A DNA stretch of 63,187 bases from assembly GCF_012985275.1 (NCBI RefSeq), contig NZ_JABEKY010000003.1; one strand, given 5' to 3'. Positions 5,313-40,271 of the stretch are shown in pieces. The notes under the pieces are model-generated. The model did no database searches. It was not told where the DNA came from and saw nothing but the letters and a program-made list of their open reading frames with translations. Both the position numbers and the translations under genes were made by a program. Origin of the DNA: Corallococcus exiguus (GTDB taxonomy: Bacteria > Myxococcota > Myxococcia > Myxococcales > Myxococcaceae). Position 1 is the stretch's first letter. Each line of letters begins with the position of its first letter.

Positions 5313-5534
5313 CTACTTCTTCGGCATCCGGATATTGGGGTTCGCCGTGACTCGGGGGGTGCTCTTCGCCTTGAAGCTGCCACCGGCCGCGGCCTTCATC
5401 GTGGGCCCCTTGGCCGCGGTTCCCAGTTGGGCCCTGGCTGTGTCCGTCTTGGGCTGCTGCGATGGCGCGATGGCCTTGTTCATGGCGGGCTTGCGGTCGG
5501 GTGTCTTCCGCGTCTGGGACGTCATTGTCTTCAT
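5313..5534 (-). CDS. small basic Lys/Ala/Pro-rich protein (73 aa), last gene of the contractile-tail operon
   Basis: GGAGG sits 6 nt upstream of the ATG, and the ATG overlaps the stop of the preceding gene as ATGA. Codons are GC3-rich. Sequence MKTMTSQTRKTPDRKPAMNKAIA...AKSTPRVTANPNIRMPKK. Confidence 0.45.
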   Translation of the reverse strand: MKTMTSQTRKTPDRKPAMNKAIAPSQQPKTDTARAQLGTAAKGPTMKAAAGGSFKAKSTPRVTANPNIRMPKK

Positions 5535-6262
5535 GGGTTGCCTCCGGGAATGCGTCCGGCGGGGATGCCTTCCAGCTTGAGCGACACACCGGGCTGCGCT
5601 GGGACTTCCAGATTCACCAGGCCCCCCGCGCCGGTGAGGTGCACGTCCGGGCCAATCTCCAGACGACAGCCCACGGCCGGGCGTCCCGCGTGGTCCTGGA
5701 CCAGCAGCCTGCGCCGGTCGTCGCTCACCACCACCGACGGGCGCCTCAATGCGACCTGCGCCTGCGCGATGAGCACGCAGCGCCGACCCTTCACGCTCGC
5801 TCGGACCTGGGCCCGAATCCGGGCGACTCCGGGTGTCTTGTCTTCGGGAGGTCTCGCGAGGAGCGTGGCACTGTCCGAGGGTGGACCTGGGAGGACCGCG
5901 CCTTCCCAGACCGCTTCGAACCCTTCGTCCAGTCCCACCGCCGCGAGCGACAACGGCACGCGGATGGGCTCCGCGCCCAGCCAGAGTTCGTCCGGCGCGA
6001 CGATGGCCACTTCGGGATCCAGTTGGATGTCCGCGAGCCAGGACCAGCGCTCGGTGAGCAGGTCCGCGAGCCAGCCGGCTTCTTCTGGCGACATGCGTGT
6101 CAGAGCCTGATCCACGTGCGCAGGGTCCGCCAGTCGTTGGAGCGCCGCTGCGCCGTCCTTGAACCGGGCGTTCTCCAACAGGCCGTCGAGCTGGCCCGGA
6201 AGCTGTTTCGCGAGGGAGCGCAGCAGATGGCCCAATCGCTGTCTTGGAGGAAATGCGTTCAT
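5531..6262 (-). CDS. hypothetical protein (243 aa; MNAFPPRQRLGHLL...)
   Basis: Internal ATG of ORF 5531..6418, in an ATGA overlap with the stop of the upstream 403-aa gene. Protein-like composition after the start; the upstream extension is Gly/Arg-rich and is likely not translated. Confidence 0.6.
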   Translation of the reverse strand: MNAFPPRQRLGHLLRSLAKQLPGQLDGLLENARFKDGAAALQRLADPAHVDQALTRMSPEEAGWLADLLTERWSWLADIQLDPEVAIVAPDELWLGAEPIRVPLSLAAVGLDEGFEAVWEGAVLPGPPSDSATLLARPPEDKTPGVARIRAQVRASVKGRRCVLIAQAQVALRRPSVVVSDDRRRLLVQDHAGRPAVGCRLEIGPDVHLTGAGGLVNLEVPAQPGVSLKLEGIPAGRIPGGNP

Positions 6263-7470
6263 CCTCGCCTCCTCCACAGCGAGCGGCCGGTCATCCGGCG
6301 CCGCAGTCGCTGTTCTGCTTGCTGGAGCACTTCGGCGTCCCTCGCCGTGAGGCGGCGGCCGTTCACGAAGAAGGCCCGTGCGTTGGTTTCTGGTTCGTAT
6401 TCCGGTGCTTCTTCCCACACGGGTTCTTCATCCGGTGCTTCGGGGCGTGGCGGTGCTGAGACTCGCGGCGGAGGCAGCAACGTCTTCACTTCGATGTGCA
6501 CCGGGCCTGGTGCTGTGTGCCTCGTGGCCCGTGATGGGGGGAGGATGGATTCGCCCTGCTCCTCCGATTGGGAAGGTCGCGGAGTCCGTGATTCAGGTCG
6601 GTCGTGACGACGTGGCCCGAGTTCCTCCTGGAACGGTGGGGCCTTCCGTGTGTCCGGTGCCGGCGGTCGGTCCAGGGCTCGTGGTATCCGTCTCCTCCGT
6701 GGAGGTGCCCGTGCGGACGTCTCCCCTTGCTCCACTGGGGGAGCGGGTGGTGACGCTTGTGTGGTGGCGCGCGCGACGCGATGGCGGCGTGTTGAGGACT
6801 CCGGGACCCGTGCGCTGATCCGTGGGCGTTCGGCGTTCTTCTCCATGCCGGGTCTCGGCACCCGGCTCCTTCGCGGACTTGGAGCCTTCACGCGTGTTTC
6901 GACGGCGAGAGGGACCTCTGAGGCCGTCTGGCTTTCAGGTTTGGGCCGGTCGCCTCGTTGTGAAGGGACATCCGTGCCCTCGGTGCGAGGACGAAGTGGT
7001 CGTGGCTCCGCGACCTCCGTCTGGAGTTCTGGGGCGTTGGGGACAACGGGGAGCGCGAGCGTCGGAGGCAGTTTCCCGTCTGGACTCCGGGTCACGGGTT
7101 CGACCGGTGGCCGTGGTTCCTGGAGCTGCGCCGACGTGCCGCCAGGTCGGGGAACGCGACGGCGGATGGGTGGGATGGGTTCCGTTGCGGCTGGGACTTC
7201 GACCCGCTCAGGACTCTTGAACACGGGTGGCATCACGTTGTCAGGCTCCGTGAATCCCATGGACCTGGGGCCTGTCGAGGGCGCGGCGGTCTTCACCGCG
7301 CGGCCTGGCTCCCCTTCCCGCCTCCGCGCACCCGGCGTTGGCAGGGACGGTGGCAGCGGCGGATCCACCTTGAAGTCTCCGCGCTCTCCTCGCTCCAGGG
7401 GATGGAGCACCCGGTCCAGTTCCGTCAGCAGCGCGGCCACCACGAAGAGGTCGTCTCTGGCTTCGCTCAT
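6259..7470 (-). CDS. proline-rich, largely disordered protein (403 aa) with short structured N- and C-termini
   Basis: ATG MSEARDDLFVVAALLTELDRVLHP overlaps the stop of the 720-aa gene as ATGA. About 300 aa of P/R/E/S/T-rich low complexity follow. The C-terminus is ARAFFVNGRRLTARDAEVLQQAEQRLRRR. Confidence 0.6.
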   Translation of the reverse strand: MSEARDDLFVVAALLTELDRVLHPLERGERGDFKVDPPLPPSLPTPGARRREGEPGRAVKTAAPSTGPRSMGFTEPDNVMPPVFKSPERVEVPAATEPIPPIRRRVPRPGGTSAQLQEPRPPVEPVTRSPDGKLPPTLALPVVPNAPELQTEVAEPRPLRPRTEGTDVPSQRGDRPKPESQTASEVPLAVETRVKAPSPRRSRVPRPGMEKNAERPRISARVPESSTRRHRVARATTQASPPAPPVEQGETSARAPPRRRRIPRALDRPPAPDTRKAPPFQEELGPRRHDRPESRTPRPSQSEEQGESILPPSRATRHTAPGPVHIEVKTLLPPPRVSAPPRPEAPDEEPVWEEAPEYEPETNARAFFVNGRRLTARDAEVLQQAEQRLRRRMTGRSLWRRRG

Positions 7471-9629
7471 GTCGGAACTCCCAGCCAGGACTTGAGGACC
7501 GTGGTCGCGGCCCTCAGCTCCGGATCCCGCAACACCGTCTTCGTCACACCGCCATCCTGCACCGTGATGTTCGCCGTGCCTGAATCCAGCTCGATGGGGA
7601 GCATGACTCCCGTGGCGAGGCTCGGGCCTCCGAAGCCCTTGAAGTCGCGTCGTAGCGTCACGTCGCGGACCAGCGCCTTGGGCATCTGCAAATCGCGCAG
7701 CGTGATGACCACGACCTCTTCGTCGTCCTCGCAGCACAGCGGCGTGGGCGTCGTTGCCACCTCGTCGTCCGCTCGGGCCGCCGCGCCTGTGCGCACGTCC
7801 ACCGTGTCCACGGTGGCTACGCCCTGCCACCACGTTTCTTCGTCGTCCGCTCCGCGCACGAGCAACAGCTCCCCCGGCCTTGCGACCTGCACCGGTTTGC
7901 TCGAGCCAGATGTGCTCGTCAGCGGGATGCCATCCAGGAACAGCCGCGTCGCTCCGACCTCCACCGGCGGCAGCAACTTGAACGTCTGGCCTGGATACGG
8001 CGCGGCCACCGATGACGGCACCAGACCCAGCGCGCCACCGCCCTGCCCCAGGATCAGGTTCAGCTTCGCGCCCAGTGCGATGATCTCCTGCACCACCCCG
8101 TCCACCTGCGGTCCCGCCGCCGCGTGCCCATCCAGCAACTCCTGCGTGGAGATGGACACCGCGCTTCCACCCACGGGCGACCCGATCCTCACCATTCCGG
8201 CGACTCCAGGCAGCTTCGCATCCGTCGCGATGGACACATTCAGCGGCGCGATGAGCAGCCGCTTCTCGGCCCCTTTCACCTCCCAGCCCAGCACCAGCGC
8301 CAGCGTGGGCCGGTCCCCTCCCACGTTCGCCACGTGCCCCGCCTGCACCTGCCCCAGGTCCACCGTGGGCGTCACAGACAACGCCGTCGCCTGCGTGAGC
8401 GTGTCCTTCACCAGGGCCACCGGTCCCACCAGCGGGATTCCCGTGGACTGTCCCGCGAGCACCCGCGTCAGGCTGTCGCAGAATGGCTTCAGCACGAGCT
8501 TCAGCAGCGGTGCAAGCGCGGCCCGGTTGCGCACGTCGAACCATCGCTGACGGAACACCCAGTGGAAGCGCAGCGACCATTCCAACGTCCGGAGCATCCG
8601 CAGCGACCCGTCCGGATACGCCAGCCGCGACGCCACCGCTTCGTCCATTCCCTTCCCCGCCTCGATGTCCAACGTCATCAGCTCGTTGGACAGCTGTCCG
8701 GGGATGCCGGGTGAATCCGCCCTCCGCAGCGTGGTCTTCAACGACGCCAGCCCCGACACGGACGCAATCACGGTGCGTGGCGGCTGGAGCGCCGTGGCCA
8801 CCGCGCCGTAGTCCGTCGCCGACGCCTGAAGTGAATCCGCCGCGCGTTGGAGCGCATCCGTCAACTCCAGGGCCGCGCCCTGATTCTCCAGCGTGGCCTT
8901 CGCCTGGAGCAGCACGTTCCGGTCCGCCAGGCACTCGCTCTGGCGCGTCGCGGCGCCTGACGCCACGGGGTCGAACGCGCTGGACGCGGACGAGACGGAC
9001 AGCCCATTCAGCACGCTGCTCAGGGACACCGTCTCCGATGTCGTCTTCAACTCCGCCCGCCTCGTGGTGCGCAGGCCCGTCCAGGTCCCCAGCTCCGCGA
9101 CGCCGCTCTCCGCCGCATCCTTCCGCTGGTCCGTGGTGAAGAGCCCCGCGTCGATGGCGTCGTCCACGGTGCCGCTCACCGACAGGGGCCCGAAGTCATA
9201 CGTGGGCACTCGCACCGCCACCTCGCCGCCGTGCTTCTCGTCGCGGAACGCGAACAGCGTCACCGTGCCCGCGAGCAACGCCGCACCCGTGAGCTTCCCG
9301 TCTCCATCCGCTCCGATGGTGCCCACCGCGAACTCCAGCTCCTCCACGCCCGGCAGCCGGCTCTCACTCCCCACGAGCGAACCGACGGACACATTCGGCA
9401 GCCCTTCGCCCCGGGGCGCGGAGGCCAGCGCTGGCGCGAGCGCGATGCCCACCGCGCGACGACGGGCCCGCTCGATGACGTTGAACACGGGCAGGAGCGC
9501 GCACACCGTCTGGACGTGCGGCGCGTCCTGATCCGCCACGCCGTCCATGCGGTCCAGGAACGCCTCCAGCTGCTTCCAGGCCGCCTGCCAGCCATCCAGC
9601 TCCGCGCTCAGGCGTGTCACCGCGCTCAC
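7467..9629 (-). CDS. hypothetical protein (720 aa), candidate payload/accessory of the contractile particle
   Basis: Long ORF with balanced protein-like composition and no recognisable motif. ATGA overlaps at both ends. Confidence 0.7.
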   Translation of the reverse strand: MSAVTRLSAELDGWQAAWKQLEAFLDRMDGVADQDAPHVQTVCALLPVFNVIERARRRAVGIALAPALASAPRGEGLPNVSVGSLVGSESRLPGVEELEFAVGTIGADGDGKLTGAALLAGTVTLFAFRDEKHGGEVAVRVPTYDFGPLSVSGTVDDAIDAGLFTTDQRKDAAESGVAELGTWTGLRTTRRAELKTTSETVSLSSVLNGLSVSSASSAFDPVASGAATRQSECLADRNVLLQAKATLENQGAALELTDALQRAADSLQASATDYGAVATALQPPRTVIASVSGLASLKTTLRRADSPGIPGQLSNELMTLDIEAGKGMDEAVASRLAYPDGSLRMLRTLEWSLRFHWVFRQRWFDVRNRAALAPLLKLVLKPFCDSLTRVLAGQSTGIPLVGPVALVKDTLTQATALSVTPTVDLGQVQAGHVANVGGDRPTLALVLGWEVKGAEKRLLIAPLNVSIATDAKLPGVAGMVRIGSPVGGSAVSISTQELLDGHAAAGPQVDGVVQEIIALGAKLNLILGQGGGALGLVPSSVAAPYPGQTFKLLPPVEVGATRLFLDGIPLTSTSGSSKPVQVARPGELLLVRGADDEETWWQGVATVDTVDVRTGAAARADDEVATTPTPLCCEDDEEVVVITLRDLQMPKALVRDVTLRRDFKGFGGPSLATGVMLPIELDSGTANITVQDGGVTKTVLRDPELRAATTVLKSWLGVPT

Positions 9630-11236
9630 GGGCCAGTTCCCTTCTTTGGCGTGCCGGGTGGCGGCGTGGACGCGTCAGCCGCGGGGGGCTGCGGACCCGG
9701 CGGACGTTCGGACGCGCCCGGACCTCCGAAGCCGATCGCCAGCGAACGCCCTCCCCGGCGCTGGGCGTGCTTCGTGGACGCAATGCCCTCCAGGATCTCC
9801 TTCTGTTCCTCCACGTGCTCCTTCGACTGGTCCAGCACCTCCACCAGCGCGGAGCGGCTCCGCTCGGCGGCGGCCTTCAGTTCATCTGGCGTGCGCCCCA
9901 TCGCCTTCACGAACCTCTGGGGCGCCTTCTCCACCGCGTTCACGAACTTGTCCGCCTGCTTCTGGGCCGTCGTCTTCAGATTGCCCCAGGCGTCCTTCAC
10001 CTCGTCCGTGTTCGCCTCCAGCACCTGCGCCGCCTCGCTCTCCAGCAGGGCCTTCTTCACGTCCTGGAGCGTGAGGTCTCCCGACGCCAGCTCCATCGCG
10101 GACGACAGGCCCAGCAGCTCCCAGAGCATCGCGGCCTTCGCCAGGTTGGGCCCCGCCGCCAGCAGGCAGATGCCTCCCACGTAGCCTCCGGGGGGCCGGC
10201 TCGTCGCCGTGAGGAAGGCCTGCTTCAGCCCCGCCACTCCGCCCGTCGTCGACACCGGCAGCGCGTACATGCCCGCGGACTTCAGCGCGTTCAGCAGGTC
10301 GATGATGGCCTGCACCGCCTGCGCCAGCTTCATCAACACCTGCACCTTGTCCTGCATCGCGGCGGCGAGACTCCGGAGAAGCGTCGCCAGGTTGTCCACC
10401 GACAGGAGCAGCGCCCTCAGCGCCTCCGGGAGGATGAGCAGCTTCTCCAGGTCCGGGAACAGGTCGCGCATGCGCGCGGACTTCCAGTCCGGCTTCACTG
10501 ACCTTCCGCGCGCCCGGCTGCGGCGAGGATCCAACGCGCCCTTGGGGTACTTCTCGAACGCCTTCTTGAACGCGCTGATGTTGAGCAGCTTGCCCAGCAG
10601 GTACAGCGCCTGCCGGAGCGCATCCAGCGACGGTGCCGCCATCACGATGAACACCGCCTGCACCGGCGCGCCGTCCGTCACCGTCGGGCGTGAGTCATCC
10701 CCTGGATCATCGAAGGACGCGACGAACCGCCCCGCCCAGCGCGCGAAGCCGTCCGGCGTCACCGGCGGGCGCTCCAGCGCGAAGCCCGCCTTGAAGTCCT
10801 TGGGGATGTTCGGGATGAAGCCGGTCTCCGCCAGGTTCGTCTCCGTGGGCCCGATGCCCGGCGCGTCCGCGTAGAGGTACGCGCCCGCGTTGAGCAGGTC
10901 GTTGATGATGTCCTTGAGCAGCTCGTAGGCCGCGAGGATGAGCGCCCGGAACGGATCCGGCAGCCCCAGGAGGATGGCCGCCAGCGCCTGGAGCAGCGCC
11001 TGCACGAACTGGAGCACCGCGATGATGATCTGCAGCGGCGGCTTGACGATGCCCACCAACTGCTCCAGCCCCGGCGGCACGCCGATCAGCAGCGGCCGCC
11101 ACGCGGGCCCACTCCCGGCGTCCGTGCCGGTGGCGTCCGTGCCTTCCGCATCCTCCAATGCCTTCGCCAGGTCCTCGCAGCAGGCCTCCAGCGCGCCGTG
11201 GAGTTCAGCGATAGCGGCGTCGTTGAACTCGGCCAC
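9626..11236 (-). CDS. hypothetical protein (536 aa) with hydrophobic helical segments; possible tape-measure-like or membrane-active protein
   Basis: GTG start with GGGAGGA 5 nt upstream. Hydrophobic stretches LQIIIAVLQFVQALLQALAAILLGL and LAQAVQAIIDLLNALKSAG. Charged, coil-like C-terminus followed by a Gly/Pro tail. Confidence 0.65.
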   Translation of the reverse strand: MAEFNDAAIAELHGALEACCEDLAKALEDAEGTDATGTDAGSGPAWRPLLIGVPPGLEQLVGIVKPPLQIIIAVLQFVQALLQALAAILLGLPDPFRALILAAYELLKDIINDLLNAGAYLYADAPGIGPTETNLAETGFIPNIPKDFKAGFALERPPVTPDGFARWAGRFVASFDDPGDDSRPTVTDGAPVQAVFIVMAAPSLDALRQALYLLGKLLNISAFKKAFEKYPKGALDPRRSRARGRSVKPDWKSARMRDLFPDLEKLLILPEALRALLLSVDNLATLLRSLAAAMQDKVQVLMKLAQAVQAIIDLLNALKSAGMYALPVSTTGGVAGLKQAFLTATSRPPGGYVGGICLLAAGPNLAKAAMLWELLGLSSAMELASGDLTLQDVKKALLESEAAQVLEANTDEVKDAWGNLKTTAQKQADKFVNAVEKAPQRFVKAMGRTPDELKAAAERSRSALVEVLDQSKEHVEEQKEILEGIASTKHAQRRGGRSLAIGFGGPGASERPPGPQPPAADASTPPPGTPKKGTGP

Positions 11237-11399
11237 GCGCGTCCTCCCGGGTGCGTTGTTCCAGCTCCATCAGCTTCTCCAGCCGCTCGGCGTCCTGGGC
11301 CACGCCCACCGCCGCCGCCTGGAGCAGCAGGGCCTTCACCTCCTCCAGCCGCTCACGCAGCACCGAGGCTTCCAGTGGCTTCCAGTCGGGAGCCTTCAT
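11205..11399 (-). CDS. small coiled-coil-like protein (64 aa)
   Basis: GC3-rich ORF starting 4 nt after the spike gene stop. Overlaps the start of the 536-aa gene by 32 nt. Weak RBS. Confidence 0.35.
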   Translation of the reverse strand: MKAPDWKPLEASVLRERLEEVKALLLQAAAVGVAQDAERLEKLMELEQRTREDARGRVQRRRYR

Positions 11400-33791: not shown

Positions 33792-34000
33792 CCATTGCCC
33801 CGAGCGCCGGGCGGCTCGCGCTGAGCGAGGCTCCGGGCAATGGCTTCGTTGTTCTTGTCCATCAGCGCCACCACCGTCTGGGTGAACAGCTTCACGAACT
33901 CCTTGGGGTTGTCCGGGACGCTGCGCAGCATCCACGCGAGCTCACGCTCCATCTCGCGGCGAGTGAGTCCGACCTGTCCTTGCACCGGGGGTGGGGCCAT
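33788..34000 (-). CDS. small hypothetical protein (70 aa)
   Basis: ORF between the 291-aa and 242-aa genes, ATGA-coupled to the latter. Helical REMERELAWMLRSVPDNPKEFVKLF. Confidence 0.45.
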   Translation of the reverse strand: MAPPPVQGQVGLTRREMERELAWMLRSVPDNPKEFVKLFTQTVVALMDKNNEAIARSLAQREPPGARGNG

Positions 34001-34018: not shown

Positions 34019-34894
34019 TCAGCTCCAGCCATCCACCAGCGGACGGCCTTCCAGCTCGTTGCGAAGCAGCTCCAGGTAGCGCCACCGCCTGGCCCGAGGC
34101 AGGGCCAGGATGTCCGCCTCCGACCAGTGGTAGTGGAAGGCCAGCACGTGCACCTCCGTCTCCAATCGCGCCGCCCCACCCCGCAGCTCGCGAGCCAGCA
34201 GCGCGAACGGATCCAGCTCCAGCTCCAACCACGCGGAGCACTTCGGGCAGCGCGCCAGCAGCCCCAGGTCCGGAGCGCTCGTGCCGTCCGCCAACGCCAG
34301 CGCCACCGCGTGCCGTGAGCGCGCGGGCAGGGCCAGCCACGCGGAAGGCGTCAGCGTCTGCCCATCCACCACCACCAGCCGCGACCACAGGAGCGCGGAC
34401 CGCTCCGCCCGCGTGCCATGCACTTCCGCGAGCAGCGCGTCGTCCTCGCCCGTGGGCTCGCGCACCTCCGCCCGTCCCTCCGGCAGCGCCACGGTGAGCA
34501 CCTCCGGCGCCGCGTCCACCCGCTCCGGCGAGAGCGCGGAGAGCCGCACGTCCACGTCCGCCATCGCCTCGCATCCGGGCGCGGGGCAGCGCGCCACCAG
34601 CGTCGCCCGGTCCCCGTACATCCGGGCCCGCAGGTGCAGCGCCACGTGGTGCCTGTCTCCGCGCGTGAGGCAGGCCGCCAGCTCCGCGTCCACGCACGCG
34701 TAGTCCCCCAACCGTCCCAGACACGCCGCCAGCCACCCGCTCACCGCGCGCGGGCCGGGACGCTCGCCGGCCTGGGCCAGCGCCCACTCCTCGCGGCCGG
34801 TGAGCGGGCGCAGATCGCCCTGGCGGTGACAGCGGCCGTCCTCGTCGAAGAGGCCGTGCGGCAGCAGCACCGGGATGGGAGGTTCCAGGAGCAC
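34019..34894 (-). CDS. hypothetical Cys4 (CPAPGC...CPKC) protein (291 aa) of the contractile-tail operon
   Basis: Starts 2 nt after the tube-2 stop. Two CxxC-type pairs suggest a zinc ribbon. No other motif. Confidence 0.55.
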   Translation of the reverse strand: MLLEPPIPVLLPHGLFDEDGRCHRQGDLRPLTGREEWALAQAGERPGPRAVSGWLAACLGRLGDYACVDAELAACLTRGDRHHVALHLRARMYGDRATLVARCPAPGCEAMADVDVRLSALSPERVDAAPEVLTVALPEGRAEVREPTGEDDALLAEVHGTRAERSALLWSRLVVVDGQTLTPSAWLALPARSRHAVALALADGTSAPDLGLLARCPKCSAWLELELDPFALLARELRGGAARLETEVHVLAFHYHWSEADILALPRARRWRYLELLRNELEGRPLVDGWS

Positions 34895-34895
34895 G

Positions 34896-35387
34896 TCAGA
34901 CCACCGGCTCCAGCGTGAAGCCCTCGTGCTGGACCTCCAGGGACTCGATGAGGATCTCGTTCGCCTCCGCGGCCAGCTCCGACATCGCGGTGAACTTCGA
35001 GACCCACGCGTTGCGCAGCACGAACTTCTTCACCGCGCGGTTGAAGTCCAGGTCGAAGACGAGAATCTCCACGGTGCGCCGGAAGTCCGGCTCCGCCGAG
35101 CGGAAACCGGGCGTGGCTTCATGGCGGATGAGCTGGGTGGCCCAGTCCCGGAACGTCGTGTCCTGGGTGAGGCCCGCCTCCAGCGTGAGGGGCTCGTAGT
35201 GCACGCGGCCCGGGGACAGCTCGTCCACGGAGGACGGGCTGTTGCCGGAGCGGAACTTCACCACCTCCACGGTGCCGGTGATGCCGGAAATCTTCCGGCA
35301 CGCGGCCACCTCGATGTTGTTGAAGAGCACGCGGAAGTTGAAGTTGCGGTACGGGTCACGCTTCGTGGATTCGACGAATCGGGGCAT
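34896..35387 (-). CDS. tail tube protein paralog 2 (gp19/Afp1-like)
   Basis: 163 aa. PYRNFNFRVLF...VAACRKISGITGTVEVVKFRSGN...HYEPLTLEAGLT matches the eCIS/T4 gp19 tube family. Paralogous to the gene at 35412..35975. Confidence 0.8.
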   Translation of the reverse strand: MPRFVESTKRDPYRNFNFRVLFNNIEVAACRKISGITGTVEVVKFRSGNSPSSVDELSPGRVHYEPLTLEAGLTQDTTFRDWATQLIRHEATPGFRSAEPDFRRTVEILVFDLDFNRAVKKFVLRNAWVSKFTAMSELAAEANEILIESLEVQHEGFTLEPVV

Positions 35388-35411
35388 GGCTTCACTCCTC
35401 GAATGGGGACG

Positions 35412-35975
35412 TCAGGGCGTCGGGAGGCTCGTCGCGGGCATGGACAGCACGGGCCGTGGCACCGGCTCCCAGCCCTCGTGGGTGAGCTCCAGCGTCAGGA
35501 GCGCCACCTCGCCCGCCATGGCGTCCAGCTTGGGCAGGGCGTGGAACTTGCTCACCCACGCGTTGTGCACGTGGAAGCTGCGGATGCGCGCCTCCATGCC
35601 TCCGGGCGGCGGCACGTCCGTGGGGTGCGCGTAGGCGTCCCATACGTCGATGAAGAGGTCGCGCTTCACCGGCTCGCCGGGCGCCTTGCCGGTGCGCGCG
35701 AACTCCAGCACCGCGCGCGCCCAGCGCTCCAGCGTGTCGTCCAGCGCCAGCCCCTGCTCCAGCACGAGCGGCTCCCAGTTCACCTTGTGGGGCTGGGCGT
35801 ACCGGTGCAGGTTGTTGCCGCCCTCCCACGTCTCATAGGCACCCACGCTGACGGACAGGCCGGACACGGTGCGCACTCCCGCCACGTAGTCGCCGGCCGC
35901 GGATGTGCTCATCCGGAGCCGGAACTGGAAGGTCCGCAGCGGGTTGCGGGCGTTGGCGGGGACGGGCGTGGGCAT
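35412..35975 (-). CDS. tail tube protein paralog 1 (gp19/Afp1-like)
   Basis: 187 aa from the internal ATG. RTFQFRLRMSTS...VAGVRTVSGLSVSVGAYETWEGGNNLHRYAQPHKVNWEPLVLEQGLA matches the tube family. The start overlaps the sheath stop (TGATG). Confidence 0.85.
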   Translation of the reverse strand: MPTPVPANARNPLRTFQFRLRMSTSAAGDYVAGVRTVSGLSVSVGAYETWEGGNNLHRYAQPHKVNWEPLVLEQGLALDDTLERWARAVLEFARTGKAPGEPVKRDLFIDVWDAYAHPTDVPPPGGMEARIRSFHVHNAWVSKFHALPKLDAMAGEVALLTLELTHEGWEPVPRPVLSMPATSLPTP

Positions 35976-38302
35976 CAGGCCGCCAGCAGGCTCTTCTGGC
36001 TGATTTCGATGACCACGAACTCCGCGGGCTTCAGCGGCGCGAAGGCCACCTGCGCGGTGACGATGCCCGCGTCCACGTTCTCCTGCGGGTTGGTGCTCCG
36101 GTCGCAGACGACGCTGAAGGCCTCTTCCGGAGTGCTGCCCTGGAACGCGCCCTGCCGGAACAGCCCCAGCATGAAGGATTCGATGGCGACGCGGATGCGG
36201 CCCCAGAGCTCTTCGTCGTTGGGCTCGAACACCGCCCACATCAGGCCGCGCCTCAGCGACTCCTTGAGGAAGAGCGCGGTGCGGCGCACCGGGATGTAGC
36301 GCCACTCCGGATCCGGCGACAGTGTGCGCGAGCCCCACGACACCAGCCCCACGCCGGGGAACTGGCGCAGGCAGTTGAGGCTCGCCGGGTTGAGCTGGTC
36401 CTGCTCCGCGTCGATGACGGGGTACTGGAGGCCCAACGCATTGGCGAGAGACGCCTCGATGCCAGCTGGCGCCTTCCACACGCCGCGCGTGGTGTCCGTG
36501 CGCGCGAAGAGGCCCGCCACATGGCCGGAGGGCGGCACCAACCGCGTGGGGTTGCGGCCCACGCCCACGGGGTCCGCCACGCGAATCCACGGGTAGAACA
36601 TGGCCGAGTTCTTCGAGCGCGAGGGCAGCCCGTCCACGAACTGCTTCGCGTCGTCCGGCACCACCGCGAAGTCCTTGTCCACGCCGCCAGGGCCGTCCGC
36701 AAGGAAGAAGCAGTCACCCCGGTTGTCGCAGTACGCGACGCCCGCGGCGATGAACGACACCTCGTTCTTGCCGGGCAGCGCCACGATGTTGACGTCCTCC
36801 GTGTCCAGCGCGTGCAGGCCCGTGCGCAGCTTCGCGTCGCCCGCGAAGTCGGACGTGTCCAGGAGGCCCGCGCCGTCGTCGCCGCCCAGGAGCCGCAGGT
36901 TCGTCACCGAAGACGGACGCACCACCGGGTTCGCGGGCGAGTCATCCGAGTAGCCACGCGCGCGCGGCGCGAAGCCCAGCTGCCGGAGCATGGTGGGCAC
37001 CGTGGGCTGGAGCGTTTCGCTGATGGAGAGCTGGAGCCCGTCGAAGGACTCCGCGCTCATGCCCGCCGTGCCAGCGGCGCCGGTGCCGGTGAAGCCGGTG
37101 GCGGAGAGCGACAACATGGAGGTGCCCGCGGCCGTGGCCAGGCCCGTGATGACGGTGTTGCCCTGCGCGTCCGTCACCACCGACGCGACCTTGCCGGCCA
37201 GCGCCACGCTCAGCGAGTGGTTCAACTCCGCGGGCGTCACCGCGCCCTTGTCCACCGCCAGGATGGGGATGGGCACCACCGTGGTGCCGCCCGGCGGTCC
37301 CACGGTGACCTTCGCGTCCTCCGGATCCAGGTCGTACGTCGCGCCCGTGGGCTTGGGGATGGTGAGCGTGGGCCCGGTGGCGACCTTCAGCGCAATCTCC
37401 GGCGAGTCCGTGCCGCCGATGACGAAGGTGTTGGTGAGACTCGCCGAGGTGACGGCCTGGGTGAGGAAGGCCTTGAGCTCCGTGGCGGTCAGCTGCACGC
37501 GGCCGTTGACGAACGCGGCGGCCGGCACGGCGGCCACCACCAGGGCCTGGGTGATGGAGACATCCAGCGTCGTGCGGGGCAGGTCCGGCTGGGCCTCGTC
37601 CCAGGTGGAGACCTGGAGCTTGCCGCCGTCATAGAGGCTGTACTTCGTGCTGGCCAGCACCGCGGCCTTGAGCCGGGGAGGCACGCCCGGGACGAGCACC
37701 GCGCCGGGAGCCCTCGCGGCGAGCGCCACCTGGAACTCGTCGCGCACGCGGAGGTAGCGGGAGATGTCGTTGATGCGGTCGCCGACATAGTCCTCGCTGG
37801 ACAGGTCCATGCGCACGTCCTCGAACGTCTCCAGGCGGCGCGTGGCCCCGGCCTCCGTCCACATCACCTCCACGCGGAACGCCTCGCTGGGGAAGTTGAG
37901 GGAGTCGCTCACGTTGACGCGGAGGTAGTCGGACCACTCGCCCGCGCCCCGCGCCAGGAACGTGAGGGCGTTGAGGCTTCCGCCCGCTCTCGCGACCAGG
38001 GGCGTGGACACGCCGCCCACCGCGTCGGACGGCAGCACGCGCACGACGTAGGCGCGCCGACCGCCCGAGTCGAAGAAGGCCTCCACCGCCTGCGCGACAA
38101 GGCCCGCCTCCCCGGGCTCGTGTCCGCCAAAGGCCCGCTCGTACTCGGCGAAGCCGGTGACGAACGAGGCCAGGGCCGGGATGCCTCGCGCCGTGCGCCC
38201 GACGAACGCCGCCGTGGACGTGCCCACCCCTTCAATGGGGCGCGCACCGGCACTGATCTCCTCGACATAGACGCCCGGATGCAGTCGCTCAGCCACGTTC
38301 AT
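35975..38302 (-). CDS. contractile tail sheath protein
   Basis: AGGAGG-ATG start MNVAERLHPGVYVEEISAGARPIEGVGTSTAAFVG is the sheath N-terminal signature. The C-terminal YPWIRVADPVG...GVWKAPAGIEASL...SWGSRTL is the sheath C-terminal domain. 775 aa. Confidence 0.9.
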   Translation of the reverse strand: MNVAERLHPGVYVEEISAGARPIEGVGTSTAAFVGRTARGIPALASFVTGFAEYERAFGGHEPGEAGLVAQAVEAFFDSGGRRAYVVRVLPSDAVGGVSTPLVARAGGSLNALTFLARGAGEWSDYLRVNVSDSLNFPSEAFRVEVMWTEAGATRRLETFEDVRMDLSSEDYVGDRINDISRYLRVRDEFQVALAARAPGAVLVPGVPPRLKAAVLASTKYSLYDGGKLQVSTWDEAQPDLPRTTLDVSITQALVVAAVPAAAFVNGRVQLTATELKAFLTQAVTSASLTNTFVIGGTDSPEIALKVATGPTLTIPKPTGATYDLDPEDAKVTVGPPGGTTVVPIPILAVDKGAVTPAELNHSLSVALAGKVASVVTDAQGNTVITGLATAAGTSMLSLSATGFTGTGAAGTAGMSAESFDGLQLSISETLQPTVPTMLRQLGFAPRARGYSDDSPANPVVRPSSVTNLRLLGGDDGAGLLDTSDFAGDAKLRTGLHALDTEDVNIVALPGKNEVSFIAAGVAYCDNRGDCFFLADGPGGVDKDFAVVPDDAKQFVDGLPSRSKNSAMFYPWIRVADPVGVGRNPTRLVPPSGHVAGLFARTDTTRGVWKAPAGIEASLANALGLQYPVIDAEQDQLNPASLNCLRQFPGVGLVSWGSRTLSPDPEWRYIPVRRTALFLKESLRRGLMWAVFEPNDEELWGRIRVAIESFMLGLFRQGAFQGSTPEEAFSVVCDRSTNPQENVDAGIVTAQVAFAPLKPAEFVVIEISQKSLLAA

Positions 38303-38312
38303 CCTCCTGGTT

Positions 38313-40271
38313 TCAGATGGTCCCGCGCCTGGCGGTATCGACTTCTGTGACAGATGTTCCCGGATGGCCGCTGGCGCCTCGCGCAGCACCCCGCGCGATG
38401 AGATCCACCCGCGGCGTCTCGACGAGGCGGGCGGTGCTGCGCGCGTTCGGCTCGTCCATCAGCGCGGAGACCCGGTAGTCCACACAGCAGCGGTACAGGT
38501 GGTTCAAGAGGTCGTCGCGGCGGCGCAGCTGCGTCTGAAAGAAAAAGCACTCCTCCTGGAACACGAGCGTACGGCCCCGGGCCCAGGCGCCCTCCACAGG
38601 GCGACTGAGCGTCACGCGGTCGCCATCCAGTCCCAGCACCAGCGCCTGGAAGCGCTGCTTGCCCACGCGGTAGCCGTCGTCGCTCGAGCCCAGCACCATC
38701 ACGTCGCCGGGCTTGAGGCGCGAGGCCGCCGTGACGGAGCGGCGCAGCGCCGGATCCAACGGCCCCACGGGCTCCGCCACCAGGTGCACGTGGTCCACGG
38801 TGAAATCCAACGGCGTGCCCGCCTGCGCCCCCAGCGTGAGCACCATGTCGCTCGCGGCGACGGTGACGCCTGGCGCGGCGACAGGCGGCGCGGGCGTGGC
38901 CTCCGCATCCTGGAGCGGCTGCGGCACCCCGTCCGCCGACAGCCACACCACGCCCTCCCCCGCCTCCAGCCGCGCGTGCAGCACCACGCCGGCCTCCAGC
39001 CGCTCCACCGGAAGCCGCCAGCGCGTCTCCGCGACCTGAGTCCCAGTGGCCTGCGCCAGCGTCGCGGTGGCCACCACCTCGCCCATGAGCCCGGTGTCCA
39101 CCTGCTCGTAGCGGACGATGAGCCGCAGCACGGGCTGCCCCTGCGCCATCAGCACGGCCACCGGCAACGACTGCGCGGCCACGGCGCCAGCGGCGACGCG
39201 CAGCCCCAGTGACAACGCCAGTCCGTCCGGGGCCGGATTGTCGGCGTGGAAGAGGTCGGGCACCGCGGGCATGGGATAGACGAGGACGGAGGCGGTGCCC
39301 GTGCCGGACAGGCGCAGGCCCTCGGCGGTGGGAAGGAAGGACGCGCCGGGCGTCAGGTCCACGCGTCCGCCGCGCGCGCGCTCCAGGTTCTGGTCGCTGG
39401 CCTCCAGGTGCACCAGGGACAGGGCCGTGGTGGGCTCGCCGCGCGTCAGCAGGCGGACCGTCGTGGCGCCTTCGGGCACATCCTCGGCCAGCAGCGACGG
39501 GCGCAGCACCATCTGTCCGCGCGTGGGGATGGAGAGCGCCACCGTGTCCATGATGGACGCCAGGTCCACCTGCGAGCCCGCCCACAGGTCCACCTGCACA
39601 TCGATGGCCATGGCCTTGGGCGCGCGGATCTTGCTGAGGAACACCCTGCCCTCTTGGGAACGCTCCGGAGGCTCCAATCCCAGAGGCCCTTCGATGCCGC
39701 CAGTGACGGGCAGCACCTCCACGCTGGAGCGGAACTCCATGGAAGGGATGCCCGCGTCGGAGCTGATCGCGAGCCGGCTCCCCTCCACGTCCCAGCGAGC
39801 GATGACGGCGGCGAGCGCCTCCAGCAGCAGCGGGTCCGTGAGCGGCGCGCCCGTGGGTTCCTGGAAGAGTCCACCGGTGAGCGCATCCGCCAGCCGCGCG
39901 TTGATGGCGGCGGCGAGCGCGGGGCCCGTCGCGGCGGAGGCGAACGAGCCGCCCGGCAGGCCCGTGAGGGTGACGGTTGTGCGGCCATCCAGGCGCAGCT
40001 GGAGCGAGCCATTGGGGGGCACGCTGTCCCCGGAGGCGCGAGGCCTGCCGACGAGGTGACCCGGCACACGGAAGGTGGCGACGCCCGTGCGGCCGTTCTC
40101 TCGCTCGGGTTCGGGGAACAGGCCCAGCGGACCGACGACGGAGAGGAACGGCACGCGCGAAGGCCGGTAGCCCTCATCCACGTAGCCATGCGCGGCGAAG
40201 ACGCGCACGTCGCCGCTGCGCAAGGCCACCCGGCCCTGCCAAAGCAGTCCGCTGAGGATCTCGCGAATCAC
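38313..40271 (-). CDS. hypothetical protein (652 aa), first gene of the contractile-tail operon; possible cap/terminator-like N-terminus
   Basis: Clean ORF immediately upstream of the sheath, preceded by an AT-rich promoter region. The N-terminus MIREILSGLL weakly recalls DUF4255-type tail-terminator starts. No Walker A. Confidence 0.6.
   Translation of the reverse strand: MIREILSGLLWQGRVALRSGDVRVFAAHGYVDEGYRPSRVPFLSVVGPLGLFPEPERENGRTGVATFRVPGHLVGRPRASGDSVPPNGSLQLRLDGRTTVTLTGLPGGSFASAATGPALAAAINARLADALTGGLFQEPTGAPLTDPLLLEALAAVIARWDVEGSRLAISSDAGIPSMEFRSSVEVLPVTGGIEGPLGLEPPERSQEGRVFLSKIRAPKAMAIDVQVDLWAGSQVDLASIMDTVALSIPTRGQMVLRPSLLAEDVPEGATTVRLLTRGEPTTALSLVHLEASDQNLERARGGRVDLTPGASFLPTAEGLRLSGTGTASVLVYPMPAVPDLFHADNPAPDGLALSLGLRVAAGAVAAQSLPVAVLMAQGQPVLRLIVRYEQVDTGLMGEVVATATLAQATGTQVAETRWRLPVERLEAGVVLHARLEAGEGVVWLSADGVPQPLQDAEATPAPPVAAPGVTVAASDMVLTLGAQAGTPLDFTVDHVHLVAEPVGPLDPALRRSVTAASRLKPGDVMVLGSSDDGYRVGKQRFQALVLGLDGDRVTLSRPVEGAWARGRTLVFQEECFFFQTQLRRRDDLLNHLYRCCVDYRVSALMDEPNARSTARLVETPRVDLIARGAARGASGHPGTSVTEVDTARRGTI

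What the first reader, a model, noticed from the sequence alone, without database searches (positions are those of the whole stretch)
5313..40271. About 35-kb, 24-gene contractile phage-tail-like (eCIS/tailocin-type) operon with hybrid P2/eCIS architecture and no ATPase or PAAR
A single minus-strand operon encodes:
- the sheath, two gp19-like tube paralogs, a separate LysM protein and a gpD-like hub
- a gp25-like wedge, two tandem Baseplate_J paralogs and a gpI-like protein (RRKGT motif)
- a 2535-aa beta-helix fibre and a gp5/gpV spike, followed by five genes of unknown function

There is no capsid, portal, terminase, integrase or lysis gene anywhere in the window, so this is a tail-only particle rather than a prophage.

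The hub/spike split into gpD and gpV with a gpX-like LysM is P2/R-pyocin-like. The giant baseplate and fibre proteins and the sheath-tube-tube order are eCIS-like. No ORF has an AAA+ Walker A (the Afp15 equivalent) or PAAR motifs.

The spike sits after the fibre gene, not next to the hub. I do not recognise this arrangement from described Afp/PVC/MAC/pyocin loci.
Basis: partly seen in the sequence, partly recalled or inferred. Interest (0 to 1): 0.75.

Follow-up and report, generated by a model that had tools for sequence, protein, structure and literature searches.

The report
Myxobacterial phage-tail-like injection system locus
This is a chromosomal gene cluster of the soil predator Corallococcus that builds a headless, phage-tail-like contractile injection device of an already catalogued type. 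The "missing" loading ATPase is real and sits just outside the sequence window, so the locus is a good uncharacterised example rather than a new kind of machine.

Summary
**Verdict:** a complete lineage-II (IIa-like) contractile injection system, a new and uncharacterised member of a known kind.

**What is confirmed**
- The minus-strand operon at 5313-40271 is real and tightly coupled.
- It encodes a sheath, two tube paralogs, a CIS_tube initiator and a separate LysM protein.
- It also encodes a gp27/gpD-like hub, gp25, two Baseplate_J/Cis11 paralogs and a Tail_P2_I protein carrying RRKGT.
- A 2535-aa DUF6519 + beta-helix fibre and a gp5/gpV spike complete the set. No head, terminase or lysis genes were found.

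**What is not supported**
- The "hybrid P2/eCIS, ATPase-less" reading fails.
- The sheath is far closer to lineage-II CIS sheaths (haloarchaeal Cis2 E 3e-89, Streptomyces 2e-81) than to pyocin (1e-12).
- A split hub/spike, doubled Cis11 and Afp12/13-like genes are published lineage-II hallmarks. DUF6519 is the published eBAP5 fibre anchor.
- The source contig carries a Pvc15/Afp15-type AAA+ ATPase about 5.7 kb beyond the window's left edge. It heads a convergent operon with a 2640-aa annexin/metallopeptidase protein, the likely cargo.
- The same ATPase flanks the homologous locus in Micromonospora.

**Gene count and unknowns**
- 22 genes are conserved across Myxococcota and Actinomycetota. One "gene" (g13) is a palindromic-repeat insert.
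- Mode of action, cap and spike tip remain unknown.

The parts
38313..40271 (-). g01, 652 aa, first gene of the operon. Family-specific protein with a ConA/LamG-like lectin jelly-roll domain. Its role is unknown; a surface- or receptor-binding decoration is a guess.
35975..38302 (-). g02, tail sheath (Cis2/Afp2-4 equivalent), 775 aa
   Evidence: Phage_sheath_1 + Phage_sheath_1C. PDB matches: 9ezm haloarchaeal Cis2 3e-89; 8bky/8bl4 Streptomyces CIS 2e-81 and 2e-78; Pvc2 2e-42; pyocin 2e-12.
35412..35975 (-). g03, tube protein paralog 1 (187 aa)
   Evidence: Phage_T4_gp19 E 2e-20. 33% identical to g04.
34896..35387 (-). g04, tube protein paralog 2 (163 aa)
   Evidence: Phage_T4_gp19 E 2e-29. PDB CIS tube hits 9r9h, 7b5h, 7adz, 8bl4 and Afp5.
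34019..34894 (-). g05, 291 aa conserved unknown with CxxxxC...CxxC zinc-ribbon-like motifs. Sits where assembly, plug or tape-measure genes lie in other CIS loci.
   Evidence: Only a weak DUF6760 hit (E 0.006). 44-46% identical in Sorangium and Mycolicibacterium. Sequence.
33788..34000 (-). g06, 70-aa conserved small protein
   Evidence: Conserved position and sequence (36-41% identity) in L007 and L008.
33063..33791 (-). g07, CIS_tube-fold protein (Afp7/Cis7-like tube initiator), 242 aa
   Evidence: PF19266 CIS_tube E 2e-6, above cut-off.
32774..33052 (-). g08, 92-aa LysM / Tail_X-like protein
   Evidence: Phage_tail_X E 7e-4 and LysM E 1.5e-3, both just below cut-off. Conserved as a separate ORF of 89-92 aa in relatives.
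31587..32774 (-). g09, gp27/gpD-like baseplate hub (N-terminal half of a VgrG/Afp8 equivalent), 395 aa
   Evidence: Phage_GPD E 1e-4, below cut-off. VgrG_rel E 1.5e-3. Orthologues carry precomputed PF05954 hits: strong in Sorangium, weak in Mycolicibacterium.
31213..31590 (-). g10, gp25-like wedge (Cis9/Afp9)
   Evidence: GPW_gp25 E 4e-14.
27449..31216 (-). g11, Baseplate_J/Cis11 paralog a, 1255 aa
   Evidence: Baseplate_J E 2e-5, above cut-off. TIGR02243 E 5e-38.
24927..27452 (-). g12, Baseplate_J/Cis11 paralog b, 841 aa
   Evidence: TIGR02243 E 5e-45. 29% identical to g11 over 295 aa, E 6e-13.
24545..24926 (.). Intergenic insert of three 69-bp tandem units, each with a 21-bp palindrome (REP/MITE-like). 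The 129-aa ORF across it (g13) is not a conserved gene.
   Evidence: TRF. Palindrome search: 7 strand-matches against 0.01 expected. Absent in sister loci, where J2 overlaps the P2_I gene.
20774..24544 (-). g14, Tail_P2_I/Afp12-like baseplate protein with RRKGT motif and a Kelch-type beta-propeller region, 1256 aa
   Evidence: Tail_P2_I E 5e-7, above cut-off; Kelch E 6e-6, below cut-off. RRKGT at residues 98-102.
13170..20777 (-). g15, 2535-aa tail fibre with an N-terminal DUF6519 (eBAP5 baseplate-attachment domain) and a right-handed beta-helix
   Evidence: DUF6519 E 7e-9 and Beta_helix E 4e-12. eBAP5 definition and Tail_P2_I neighbourhood in PMC12923769. 46% identical over 2388 aa in Kofleriaceae.
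12797..13138 (-). g16, 113-aa small protein. Its position is conserved (107-112 aa in relatives) but its sequence is divergent.
   Evidence: No family hit.
12588..12800 (-). g17, 70-aa conserved small protein
   Evidence: 48% identical in L009 and L010. Weak MM0924_fam hit E 4e-4.
11404..12591 (-). g18, gp5/gpV-type central spike (OB domain + beta-helix + a conserved C-terminal region of about 110 aa), 395 aa
   Evidence: Phage_base_V E 6e-24; Gp5_trimer_C E 2e-6. 57-70% identical across two phyla. Alignment.
11205..11399 (-). g19, 64-aa helical small protein
   Evidence: Called in the source record. 61% identical over 33 aa in L010.
9626..11236 (-). g20, 536-aa helical protein with a hydrophobic segment. 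Candidate tape measure (Cis14/Afp14 equivalent); the assignment is weak.
   Evidence: PHROG 305 tail length tape measure E 2e-5. Hydrophobic residues 60-103. 38-54% identical in L009 and L010.
7467..9629 (-). g21, 720-aa family-specific conserved protein, function unknown
   Evidence: No hit in any library. Only 68 cluster representatives among 1.84 billion proteins; the full-length ones run about 690-870 aa. 31-39% identical in L009 and L010.
6259..7470 (-). g22, 403-aa proline-rich, probably disordered protein. Conserved N-terminal helix (about 45 aa), basic C-terminus and overall length. Not called in the source annotation.
   Evidence: ATGA overlap with g21 and an upstream GGGAG. Positional homologues of 390 and 393 aa.
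5531..6262 (-). g23, 243-aa conserved protein, last conserved gene of the operon
   Evidence: 44% identical in L010 and 34% in L009, starting at residue 50 of the long ORF. Called as 243 aa in the source record.
5313..5534 (-). g24, 73-aa basic low-complexity ORF. Doubtful gene, not conserved outside Corallococcus.
1..2265 (+). C-terminal 754 aa of a 2640-aa protein, the putative cargo/effector. Annexin repeats, a central hydrophobic pair and a C-terminal DUF6782-like HExxH (HESRH). The gene starts about 5.66 kb left of the window. Directly upstream of it lies the 782-798-aa WHD+AAA (Pvc15/Afp15-type) ATPase.
   Evidence: A homologous 520-aa core in the Micromonospora 1699-aa protein beside its CIS operon.
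2278..3588 (+). Two small genes (174 aa at 2278-2802; 256 aa at 2818-3588) of the convergent accessory operon. The 256-aa protein has a homologue after the giant protein in Micromonospora.
   Evidence: (E 3e-8).
3588..5102 (+). 504-aa HEAT + FGE-sulfatase-domain protein, last gene of the convergent operon. Also convergent on the CIS operon in a Kofleriaceae locus.
   Evidence: 38% identical over 508 aa.

Best explanation
**What it is**
- The locus is a complete chromosomal contractile injection system (CIS) of eCIS lineage II (IIa-like) in a Corallococcus genome.
- It is encoded by two convergent operons.

**The structural operon (minus strand, 40271 to 5313)**
- It builds the particle: hub (g09) and spike (g18), tube initiator (g07, with LysM g08), two tube proteins and the sheath.
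- Its large baseplate combines gp25, two Cis11/Baseplate_J proteins, a Tail_P2_I protein and a 2535-aa eBAP5 beta-helix fibre.
- Six further family-specific conserved proteins belong to it: g01, g05, g20 (a possible tape measure), g21, g22 and g23.

**The convergent accessory operon (plus strand)**
- It starts about 8 kb left of the window.
- It supplies a Pvc15/Afp15-type WHD+AAA ATPase with a weak Pvc16_N-like C-terminal domain.
- It also supplies a 2640-aa annexin/HExxH protein, which I infer is the cargo that the ATPase stabilises and loads.

**Inferred mechanism**
- The fibres bind a target surface and the baseplate rearranges.
- The sheath contracts and drives the tube and spike, with cargo, into a target membrane.

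**Shown and inferred**
- Shown: gene content, homologies, conserved synteny, absence of phage head genes, and the presence and conservation of the ATPase.
- Inferred: assembly into particles, release from the cell (extracellular mode), cargo identity and target.
For: **Domains.**

**Lineage**
- The sheath is closest to haloarchaeal clade-IIa Cis2 (3e-89) and Streptomyces Cis2 (2e-81). Pvc2 scores 2e-42 and pyocin 2e-12.
- Tube hits are all to CIS tubes.
- Split Afp8, two Afp11 copies and divergent Afp12/13 are the IIa signature. The Halogeometricum cluster also has two cis11 genes.

**Fibre.** DUF6519 = eBAP5, with a Tail_P2_I upstream neighbour and beta-helix C-terminal regions.

**ATPase**
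- WHD + AAA with Walker A GRSGTGKT.
- It aligns at E 4e-47 to the Afp15 slot of Serratia Afp plasmids, between the tape-measure and Pvc16 genes.
- Pvc15 also has a winged-helix N-terminal domain and acts in cargo stabilisation and loading.
- It is 52% identical over its full length in Micromonospora, where it is again convergent on the CIS operon end.

**Cargo**
- Giant neighbours share a 520-aa core (E 7e-27).
- Annexin is already listed among eukaryote-like domains in eCIS-associated putative toxins (Geller 2021).

**Not a prophage**
- The flanks are housekeeping, T6SS and histidine-kinase genes.
- The locus lies in the same chromosomal context in at least 10 Corallococcus species.
- The same 22-gene array occurs in Sorangium, Kofleriaceae, Mycolicibacterium and Micromonospora.
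Against: - No particle has been seen, and no lysis or release genes are in the locus.
- The two nearest structurally characterised systems are not extracellular. Streptomyces CIS is cytoplasmic. The haloarchaeal CIS is membrane-anchored and T6SS-like.
- No separate cap (Cis16/Pvc16) gene and no PAAR were detected.
- The Pvc16_N-like domain on the ATPase is below Pfam's cut-off (E 5.7e-4 and 2.3e-3). The best PDB match is the Streptomyces cap, at only E 0.36.
- Hub assignment in the window protein is weak (E 1e-4).
- The cargo assignment rests on position and domain content only.
- IIa placement rests on architecture and sheath similarity, not on a Cis11 phylogeny.
Confidence: 0.6

Rival explanations
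1. The same machine works without leaving the cell. It would be either a cytoplasmic CIS that fires inside the producer (Streptomyces-like, stress or developmental cell death) or a membrane-anchored, T6SS-like CIS (haloarchaeal clade IIa). Developmental autolysis in myxobacteria would be a natural setting.
For: - The closest solved sheaths are exactly these two systems.
- No holin, endolysin or other release gene lies in or around the locus.
- g20 has a hydrophobic segment.
Against: - The locus encodes a 2535-aa eBAP5 beta-helix fibre, a Kelch-bearing P2_I protein and a lectin-fold protein. Tail fibres are expected to be absent from intracellular CIS (PMC12923769).
- No multi-pass membrane anchor like Hbor_38620 is in the operon.
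- A canonical T6SS already lies next door.
Confidence: 0.28
2. One reading: an ATPase-less, PAAR-less hybrid of P2/R-pyocin and eCIS modules, that is, a new tailocin architecture.
For: - No Walker A motif and no PAAR in the 24 operon ORFs.
- Hub and spike are separate ORFs, and LysM is a separate ORF.
Against: - The ATPase is present 5.7 kb outside the window and is conserved with the locus across phyla.
- The split hub/spike and doubled Baseplate_J are lineage-II eCIS traits.
- The pyocin sheath is a distant match only.
- No P2-type lysis cassette was found.
Confidence: 0.04
3. The tail module of an intact or decaying prophage whose head genes lie outside the window.
For: All the core proteins are phage-tail homologues.
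Against: - Eight kb further left hold the ATPase, then superoxide dismutase, flavin reductase, a Ser/Thr kinase and a sigma factor.
- The right flank is a histidine kinase and a T6SS.
- The same head-less array is fixed at one chromosomal site across the genus and recurs in other phyla.
- An Afp15-type ATPase and an eBAP5 fibre are eCIS markers.
Confidence: 0.02

Closest known systems
eCIS lineage II, subtype IIa (Chen et al. 2019, dbeCIS). Its characterised representative is the Halogeometricum borinquense CIS, the 'archaeal T6SS' (Zachs et al. 2024, PDB 9ezm).
   Same: - The closest solved sheath (E 3e-89).
- Two cis11/Baseplate_J genes.
- VgrG split into gp27-like and gp5-like ORFs.
- Divergent Afp12/Afp13 equivalents.
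- AAA+ ATPase associated with the cluster.
- Structural genes in two subclusters.
   Different: - The host is a diderm myxobacterium.
- The baseplate proteins are much larger and the fibre is a 2535-aa eBAP5 type.
- No PAAR and no separate Cis16 cap were detected.
- No 6-TM anchor gene is present.
- Four family-specific genes follow the spike.
- The ATPase lies in a convergent operon with a giant annexin protein.
- Cis11 phylogeny was not run.
Streptomyces cytoplasmic CIS (CIS-Sc/Sv; PDB 8bky, 8bl4, 9gts)
   Same: - The second-closest sheath (E 2e-81 and 2e-78) and related tube proteins.
- The ATPase C-terminus gives its only PDB similarity to the Streptomyces Pvc16_N cap.
- Family members also occur in Actinomycetota.
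   Different: - The Streptomyces system has a separate cap.
- It is reported to lack tail fibres and to act in the cytoplasm.
- The present locus has a giant fibre and lectin or propeller domains.
Afp / PVC (lineage Ia eCIS of Serratia and Photorhabdus)
   Same: - Overall logic: sheath, tube, baseplate, fibre, then tape-measure-like gene, ATPase and a giant toxin (Afp18 is about 2,400 aa from my own recollection; not checked here).
- The ATPase aligns to the Afp15 slot at E 4e-47.
- The ATPase N-terminus is a winged-helix domain, as in Pvc15.
   Different: - Afp/PVC have three sheath paralogs, a fused VgrG, PAAR, a single Afp11 and a separate Afp16 cap.
- All their genes sit on one strand.
- Sheath similarity is only about E 1e-40.
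P2 phage tail / R-type pyocin
   Same: Separate gpD-like hub, gpV-like spike and gpX-like LysM ORFs. gpW/J/I-type baseplate families are present.
   Different: - The sheath match is distant (1e-12).
- There is no gpE/E' or gpT block and no lysis cassette.
- Baseplate proteins are 3-10 times larger.
- CIS_tube, the DUF6519 fibre and an Afp15-type ATPase are present.

Membership tests
eCIS/CIS superfamily (core set of Chen 2019: Afp1/5, 2-4, 7, 8, 9, 11, 15, 16) | Contractile sheath (Afp2-4) and gp19-type tube (Afp1/5) | tested here: met
eCIS/CIS superfamily | Afp7-type tube initiator / LysM protein | tested here: met
   CIS_tube E 2e-6 on g07. LysM/Tail_X on a separate g08, both just below cut-off.
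eCIS/CIS superfamily | Afp8 VgrG-like hub + spike | tested here: met
   Split into two ORFs. g18 Phage_base_V E 6e-24. g09 Phage_GPD E 1e-4 (weak); the Sorangium orthologue has a strong precomputed PF05954 hit.
eCIS/CIS superfamily | Afp9 gp25 and Afp11 Baseplate_J | tested here: met
eCIS/CIS superfamily | Afp15-type AAA+ ATPase in the locus | tested here: met
   Absent from the window. Present on the source contig 5.7 kb to the left: WHD+AAA, E 4e-47 to the Serratia Afp15 slot, conserved in Micromonospora.
eCIS/CIS superfamily | Afp16/Pvc16 (DUF4255) cap protein | tested here: inconclusive
   No separate gene hits Pvc16_N. The only signal is the C-terminal 80 aa of the ATPase (E 5.7e-4 and 2.3e-3, below cut-off). 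The top PDB hit is the Streptomyces cap at E 0.36.
eCIS/CIS superfamily | No phage head, packaging or T6SS membrane-complex genes within the cluster | tested here: met
   The T6SS is a separate cluster 6 kb away.
eCIS/CIS superfamily | Free particles released from cells | not testable with these tools
   Needs electron microscopy or cryo-ET.
eCIS subtype IIa (Chen 2019) | Two afp11 copies, afp8 split into gp27 and gp5 ORFs, divergent afp12/13 present | tested here: met
eCIS subtype IIa (Chen 2019) | afp10 (PAAR) present | tested here: not met
   No PAAR_motif or DUF4280 hit on any operon protein at E < 0.01. The only DUF4280 gene belongs to the T6SS neighbourhood. Remote PAAR folds (g16?) are not excluded.
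eCIS subtype IIa (Chen 2019) | Placement in the IIa clade of the Afp11 tree | not tested
   No reference Afp11 set was available. The proxy is that the nearest solved sheath is IIa.
eBAP5-type eCIS tail fibre (PMC12923769) | N-terminal DUF6519 domain, gene downstream of a baseplate adaptor (Tail_P2_I), beta-helix/lectin distal part | tested here: met
   DUF6519 35.2 bits against a cut-off of 22.4. Beta_helix E 4e-12. g14 Tail_P2_I lies immediately upstream.
R-type tailocin / P2-like tail | P2/pyocin-type sheath-tube lineage, gpE/E'-gpT block, lysis cassette, no ATPase | tested here: not met
   Pyocin sheath only E 2e-12 against 3e-89 for CIS. No lysis genes. ATPase present.

The most novel reading that the evidence does not exclude
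This 22-gene array, with its convergent ATPase and giant-protein operon, may define a distinct, uncharacterised sub-lineage of lineage-II CIS. It is shared by Myxococcota and Actinomycetota.

**Possible structural novelties**
- An oversized baseplate.
- A lectin-fold first gene.
- A block of family-specific post-spike genes: a tape-measure-like protein, a 720-aa protein found in only about 68 protein clusters worldwide, and a 400-aa polyproline-rich protein of conserved length.
- No PAAR.
- A loading ATPase that carries the cap-like Pvc16_N domain itself, in place of a separate cap.

In a predatory myxobacterium it could be a second contractile weapon beside the T6SS. It might deliver an annexin-bearing metalloprotease into eukaryotic grazers or prey.
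Probability: 0.3. Interest if true: 0.55.

Novelty: new member of a known kind. Interest (0 to 1): 0.35.

Why it matters
- **No characterised example in this phylum.** My two literature searches for a CIS or phage-tail-like system in myxobacteria found none. Corallococcus is a tractable predator that also carries a T6SS 6 kb away. Chen 2019 reported that T6SS and eCIS rarely co-occur.
- **Mode of action.** The family sits between the only two studied lineage-II systems, one cytoplasmic and one membrane-anchored, yet it carries a giant fibre. It would be a useful test of how mode of action is encoded.
- **Conserved unknown parts.** The conserved unknown genes and the ATPase with a cap-like tail point to assembly parts that the Afp/PVC paradigm does not cover.
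- **Method.** The case shows that an "absent" component can lie just past a window edge.

Tried and rejected
- **Family searches on the unknown proteins.** NCBIfam and PHROGs on g01, g05, g06, g16, g17, g21, g23 and the 174/256-aa proteins gave nothing usable. The exceptions were a weak tape-measure PHROG for g20 and a weak MM0924_fam hit for g17.
- **g01 profile against PDB sequences.** Nothing.
- **g01 structure model.** It gave only a generic ConA-like lectin fold and no cap or collar match.
- **Spike monomer model.** It was too poor (pLDDT 62, pTM 0.33) to read the tip, so I ran no fold search on it.
- **PDB sequence searches.** Baseplate_J g11 gave no hits. Hub g09 gave only E 0.13.
- **Literature on a Myxococcus or Corallococcus CIS.** No dedicated study was found.
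- **eCIStem (Geller 2021).**
  - It lists one C. coralloides DSM 2259 locus, CP003389:3522183-3558527.
  - Its trimmed Afp11/Afp8 row is homologous to the proteins here but far from the expected ~95% identity.
  - It is probably a second locus. The stored supplement is truncated, so I cannot say whether this locus is catalogued.
- **Looking up the C. coralloides coordinates of the g01 orthologue.** The look-up returned a different contig.
- **Other negatives.** Rfam scan of the window: no hits. The promoter/terminator scan at the operon end was uninformative.
- **Rejected hypothesis.** I considered g22 as a variable effector. It is a proline-rich, disordered protein of conserved length with conserved ends.

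Full report
**1. What is in the sequence**

The window is 71% G+C, so I called genes by third-position GC bias.

- A single minus-strand array runs from 40271 to 5313. Almost every junction is a 1- or 4-bp overlap, or a gap under 32 bp.
- The one exception is a 382-bp gap between g12 and g14.
- Pfam and NCBIfam give, in order:

| Gene | Size | Assignment |
|---|---|---|
| g01 | 652 aa | unknown |
| g02 | 775 aa | sheath (Phage_sheath_1 + 1C) |
| g03, g04 | 187, 163 aa | two gp19 tube proteins, 33% identical (E 5e-24) |
| g05, g06 | 291, 70 aa | unknown |
| g07 | 242 aa | CIS_tube protein |
| g08 | 92 aa | LysM/Tail_X protein |
| g09 | 395 aa | gpD/gp27-like hub (weak, E 1e-4) |
| g10 | 125 aa | gp25 |
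| g11, g12 | 1255, 841 aa | two TIGR02243/Baseplate_J proteins, 29% identical over 295 aa (E 6e-13) |
| g14 | 1256 aa | Tail_P2_I protein with RRKGT and a Kelch-like stretch |
| g15 | 2535 aa | DUF6519 + Beta_helix protein |
| g16, g17 | 113, 70 aa | small ORFs |
| g18 | 395 aa | Phage_base_V + Gp5_trimer_C spike |
| g19-g24 | 64, 536, 720, 403, 243, 73 aa | see section 5 |

- No operon protein has a Walker A motif.
- No called gene of the window hits a capsid, portal, terminase, integrase, holin or endolysin family.

**2. Corrections to the inventory**

- The ORF "g13" (24541-24930) lies across three tandem 69-bp units. Each carries the palindrome CCTGTCCGACAGTCGGACAGG (7 strand-matches against 0.01 expected).
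  - A fourth, degenerate copy sits just past the operon end, at 5214-5234.
  - Sister Corallococcus loci lack the insert and have the two flanking genes overlapping.
  - It is a REP/MITE-like insertion, not a gene.
- g24 is a low-complexity ORF that is not conserved elsewhere.
- g22 is real but was missed by the source annotation.
- That leaves 22 conserved genes.

**3. Origin and conservation**

- The tube protein occurs identically in several Corallococcus assemblies. The window itself is GCA_003668935.1, contig RAWP01000019.1.
- The sheath family is full-length and about 50% identical in:
  - Sorangium, Minicystis, Kofleriaceae and Polyangiaceae;
  - the actinobacteria Mycolicibacterium and Micromonospora.
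- Gene order is conserved gene for gene in four loci:
  - Sorangium and Mycolicibacterium for the front half;
  - Micromonospora and Kofleriaceae for the back half.
- Protein identities across these loci are 31-65%.
- The spike-after-fibre order and the "five unknown genes" are therefore fixed features of a cross-phylum family, not a local oddity or variable cargo.
- g21 has only 68 cluster representatives among 1.84 billion proteins. The family is rare.

**4. Which kind of tail**

- Against all PDB sequences, the sheath matches as follows:

| PDB entry | System | E-value |
|---|---|---|
| 9ezm | Halogeometricum borinquense Cis2 | 3e-89 |
| 8bky / 8bl4 | Streptomyces CIS sheaths | 2e-81 / 2e-78 |
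| 6j0b | Pvc2 | 2e-42 |
| 6rao | Afp3 | 2e-41 |
| 3j9q | pyocin sheath | 2e-12 |

- 9ezm belongs to "clade IIa", described as a membrane-anchored archaeal T6SS.
- Tube hits are all to CIS tubes.
- Chen et al. 2019 state three things:
  - subtypes IIa and IIc carry two afp11 copies;
  - in IIa, IIb and IIc afp8 is split into gp27 and gp5 ORFs;
  - IIa and IIb keep divergent afp12/13.
- The Halogeometricum cluster likewise has two cis11 genes.
- DUF6519 has been defined as eBAP5. It is one of five baseplate-attachment domains of eCIS tail fibres, and several features match g14 and g15 (PMC12923769):
  - Tail_P2_I is among the upstream-gene families that stand out as putative baseplate adaptors;
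  - the distal parts of eBAP5 fibres are often beta-helix or lectin domains;
  - the eBAP5 clade is enriched in Actinomycetota.

**5. The ATPase**

- Looking up two plus-strand genes of the left flank returned the source contig beyond the window. The window's first 2265 bases are the C-terminus of a 2640-aa protein. Immediately upstream of that gene lies a 782-798-aa protein.
- This upstream protein has the following features:
  - PF22977 winged-helix domain;
  - PF00004 AAA domain, with Walker A GRSGTGKT;
  - a weak C-terminal Pvc16_N (formerly DUF4255) match, E 5.7e-4 in Corallococcus and 2.3e-3 in Micromonospora.
- Its gene ends about 5.7 kb left of window position 1.
- It aligns at E 4e-47 to Serratia Afp plasmids, exactly between the annotated CIS tape-measure gene and the Pvc16 genes. 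That is the Afp15 slot.
- Pvc15 is reported to have a winged-helix-like N-terminal domain and to stabilise and load cargo.
- A genome-wide scan found the same protein, 52% identical over its full length, on the same Micromonospora contig as the homologous CIS operon. There too it is convergent on the operon's distal end.
- Upstream of the ATPase in Corallococcus are superoxide dismutase, flavin reductase, a Ser/Thr kinase and a sigma factor. These mark the boundary of the system.
- "No ATPase" is thus a window-edge artefact.

**6. Likely cargo and accessory genes**

- The 2640-aa protein has annexin repeats (E 1e-20), a central pair of hydrophobic segments and a C-terminal HESRH/DUF6782-like motif.
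- The Micromonospora locus has a 1699-aa protein in the equivalent place. It shares a 520-aa core (E 7e-27) and the hydrophobic pair, but not the annexin or HExxH parts.
- The Kofleriaceae locus has a 3285-aa protein with a faint annexin hit on record.
- Geller et al. 2021 already list Annexin among eukaryote-like domains in putative eCIS toxins.
- Two further genes recur:
  - a 256-aa protein (E 3e-8 to a Micromonospora neighbour);
  - the HEAT/FGE-sulfatase protein (38% identical in Kofleriaceae).
- I infer, but have not shown, that the giant protein is the payload and the ATPase its loader.

**7. Remaining unknowns**

- g01 models (pLDDT 74) as a protein with a ConA/LamG-type lectin jelly roll.
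- g20 is helical, with a hydrophobic stretch and a weak tape-measure PHROG hit (E 2e-5). It lies where afp14 lies relative to the fibre in Afp.
- g22 is a proline-rich, probably disordered protein of about 400 aa with conserved ends and conserved length.
- No separate cap gene and no PAAR were detected. The ATPase C-terminus gives the only cap-like signal, and its best PDB hit is the Streptomyces Pvc16_N cap at E 0.36.
- The spike has a strongly conserved C-terminal region of about 110 aa. The monomer model was too poor to interpret.

**8. How it probably works**

- The parts list supports a contractile device assembled on a hub-spike-baseplate complex. The inferred roles are:
  - a tube polymerised from g07 onwards;
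  - a sheath around the tube;
  - fibres attached through eBAP5 to the P2_I protein;
  - an AAA+ ATPase that handles a very large cargo.
- Whether particles are released is not decided by sequence.
  - For an extracellular mode: the giant fibre, the propeller and lectin domains, and the lack of a membrane-anchor gene.
  - For an intracellular or envelope-anchored mode: the two nearest characterised relatives and the lack of any lysis gene.
- I put about 0.9 on "lineage-II CIS, complete with ATPase". Within that, I put about 0.6 on extracellular against 0.3 on cell-bound.

**9. Novelty**

- The kind is known, and this general class of loci is catalogued (eCIStem; the DUF6519-anchored fibre catalogue).
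- eCIStem lists one C. coralloides locus. Its trimmed alignment row is not the near-identical match expected for this locus, so it is probably a second CIS in the genus. The stored table is truncated, so cataloguing of this locus remains unresolved.
- No member of this family, and no myxobacterial CIS in my literature searches, has been studied experimentally.
- The family-specific genes and the cap-like domain on the ATPase are modest variations.
- I rate it a new member of a known kind, with interest about 0.35.

Noticed in passing
window 24545-24926 and 5214-5234: Three tandem 69-bp units, each with a perfect 21-bp palindrome CCTGTCCGACAGTCGGACAGG, are inserted between two translationally coupled baseplate genes. 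A degenerate fourth copy lies just after the operon end. The insert is absent from sister Corallococcus genomes. It looks like a REP/MITE-like mobile palindrome and creates a spurious 129-aa ORF.
   Followed up: partly
window 46375-63187: A type VI secretion gene cluster lies 6 kb from the CIS operon start. It includes DUF4280/PAAR-like, TssF, a gp25/TssE-like protein, TssC (VipB), TssB (VipA), TssK (VasE), DotU, IcmF/TssM and an IglE_N lipoprotein. Chen 2019 reported that eCIS and T6SS rarely co-occur in one genome; here they are neighbours.
   Followed up: partly
outside the window: L012 1-9988 (= about 8.1 to 0 kb left of window position 1, continuing into window 1-2265): A WHD+AAA ATPase and a 2640-aa annexin/HExxH protein lie here. 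The ATPase C-terminal region of about 130 aa is highly conserved between Corallococcus and Micromonospora. It gives weak Pvc16_N (cap-domain) matches, which hints at an ATPase-cap fusion.
   Followed up: partly
window 6259-7470 (-): g22 is a 403-aa proline-rich, low-GC3 protein with conserved termini and conserved length across phyla. It was left uncalled in the public annotation of the source contig.
   Followed up: partly
window 3588-5102 (+) and L010 17016-18509: A HEAT + FGE-sulfatase-domain protein converges on the end of the CIS operon in both Corallococcus and a Kofleriaceae metagenome contig (38% identity). This suggests a functional link to the system.
   Followed up: partly
window 40524-46375 (+): Between the CIS operon and the T6SS lie a DUF1622 membrane protein, a multi-PAS histidine kinase, a 346-aa unknown and an AMP-binding enzyme. 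The DUF1622 and kinase genes are conserved next to the operon start in all Corallococcus loci seen, so the kinase could be a regulator.
   Followed up: no
eCIStem entry CP003389:3522183-3558527 (C. coralloides DSM 2259): The catalogued eCIS locus of C. coralloides appears to be a different lineage-II-like locus. It also has a split Afp8. Corallococcus may therefore carry two CIS loci plus a T6SS.
   Followed up: partly
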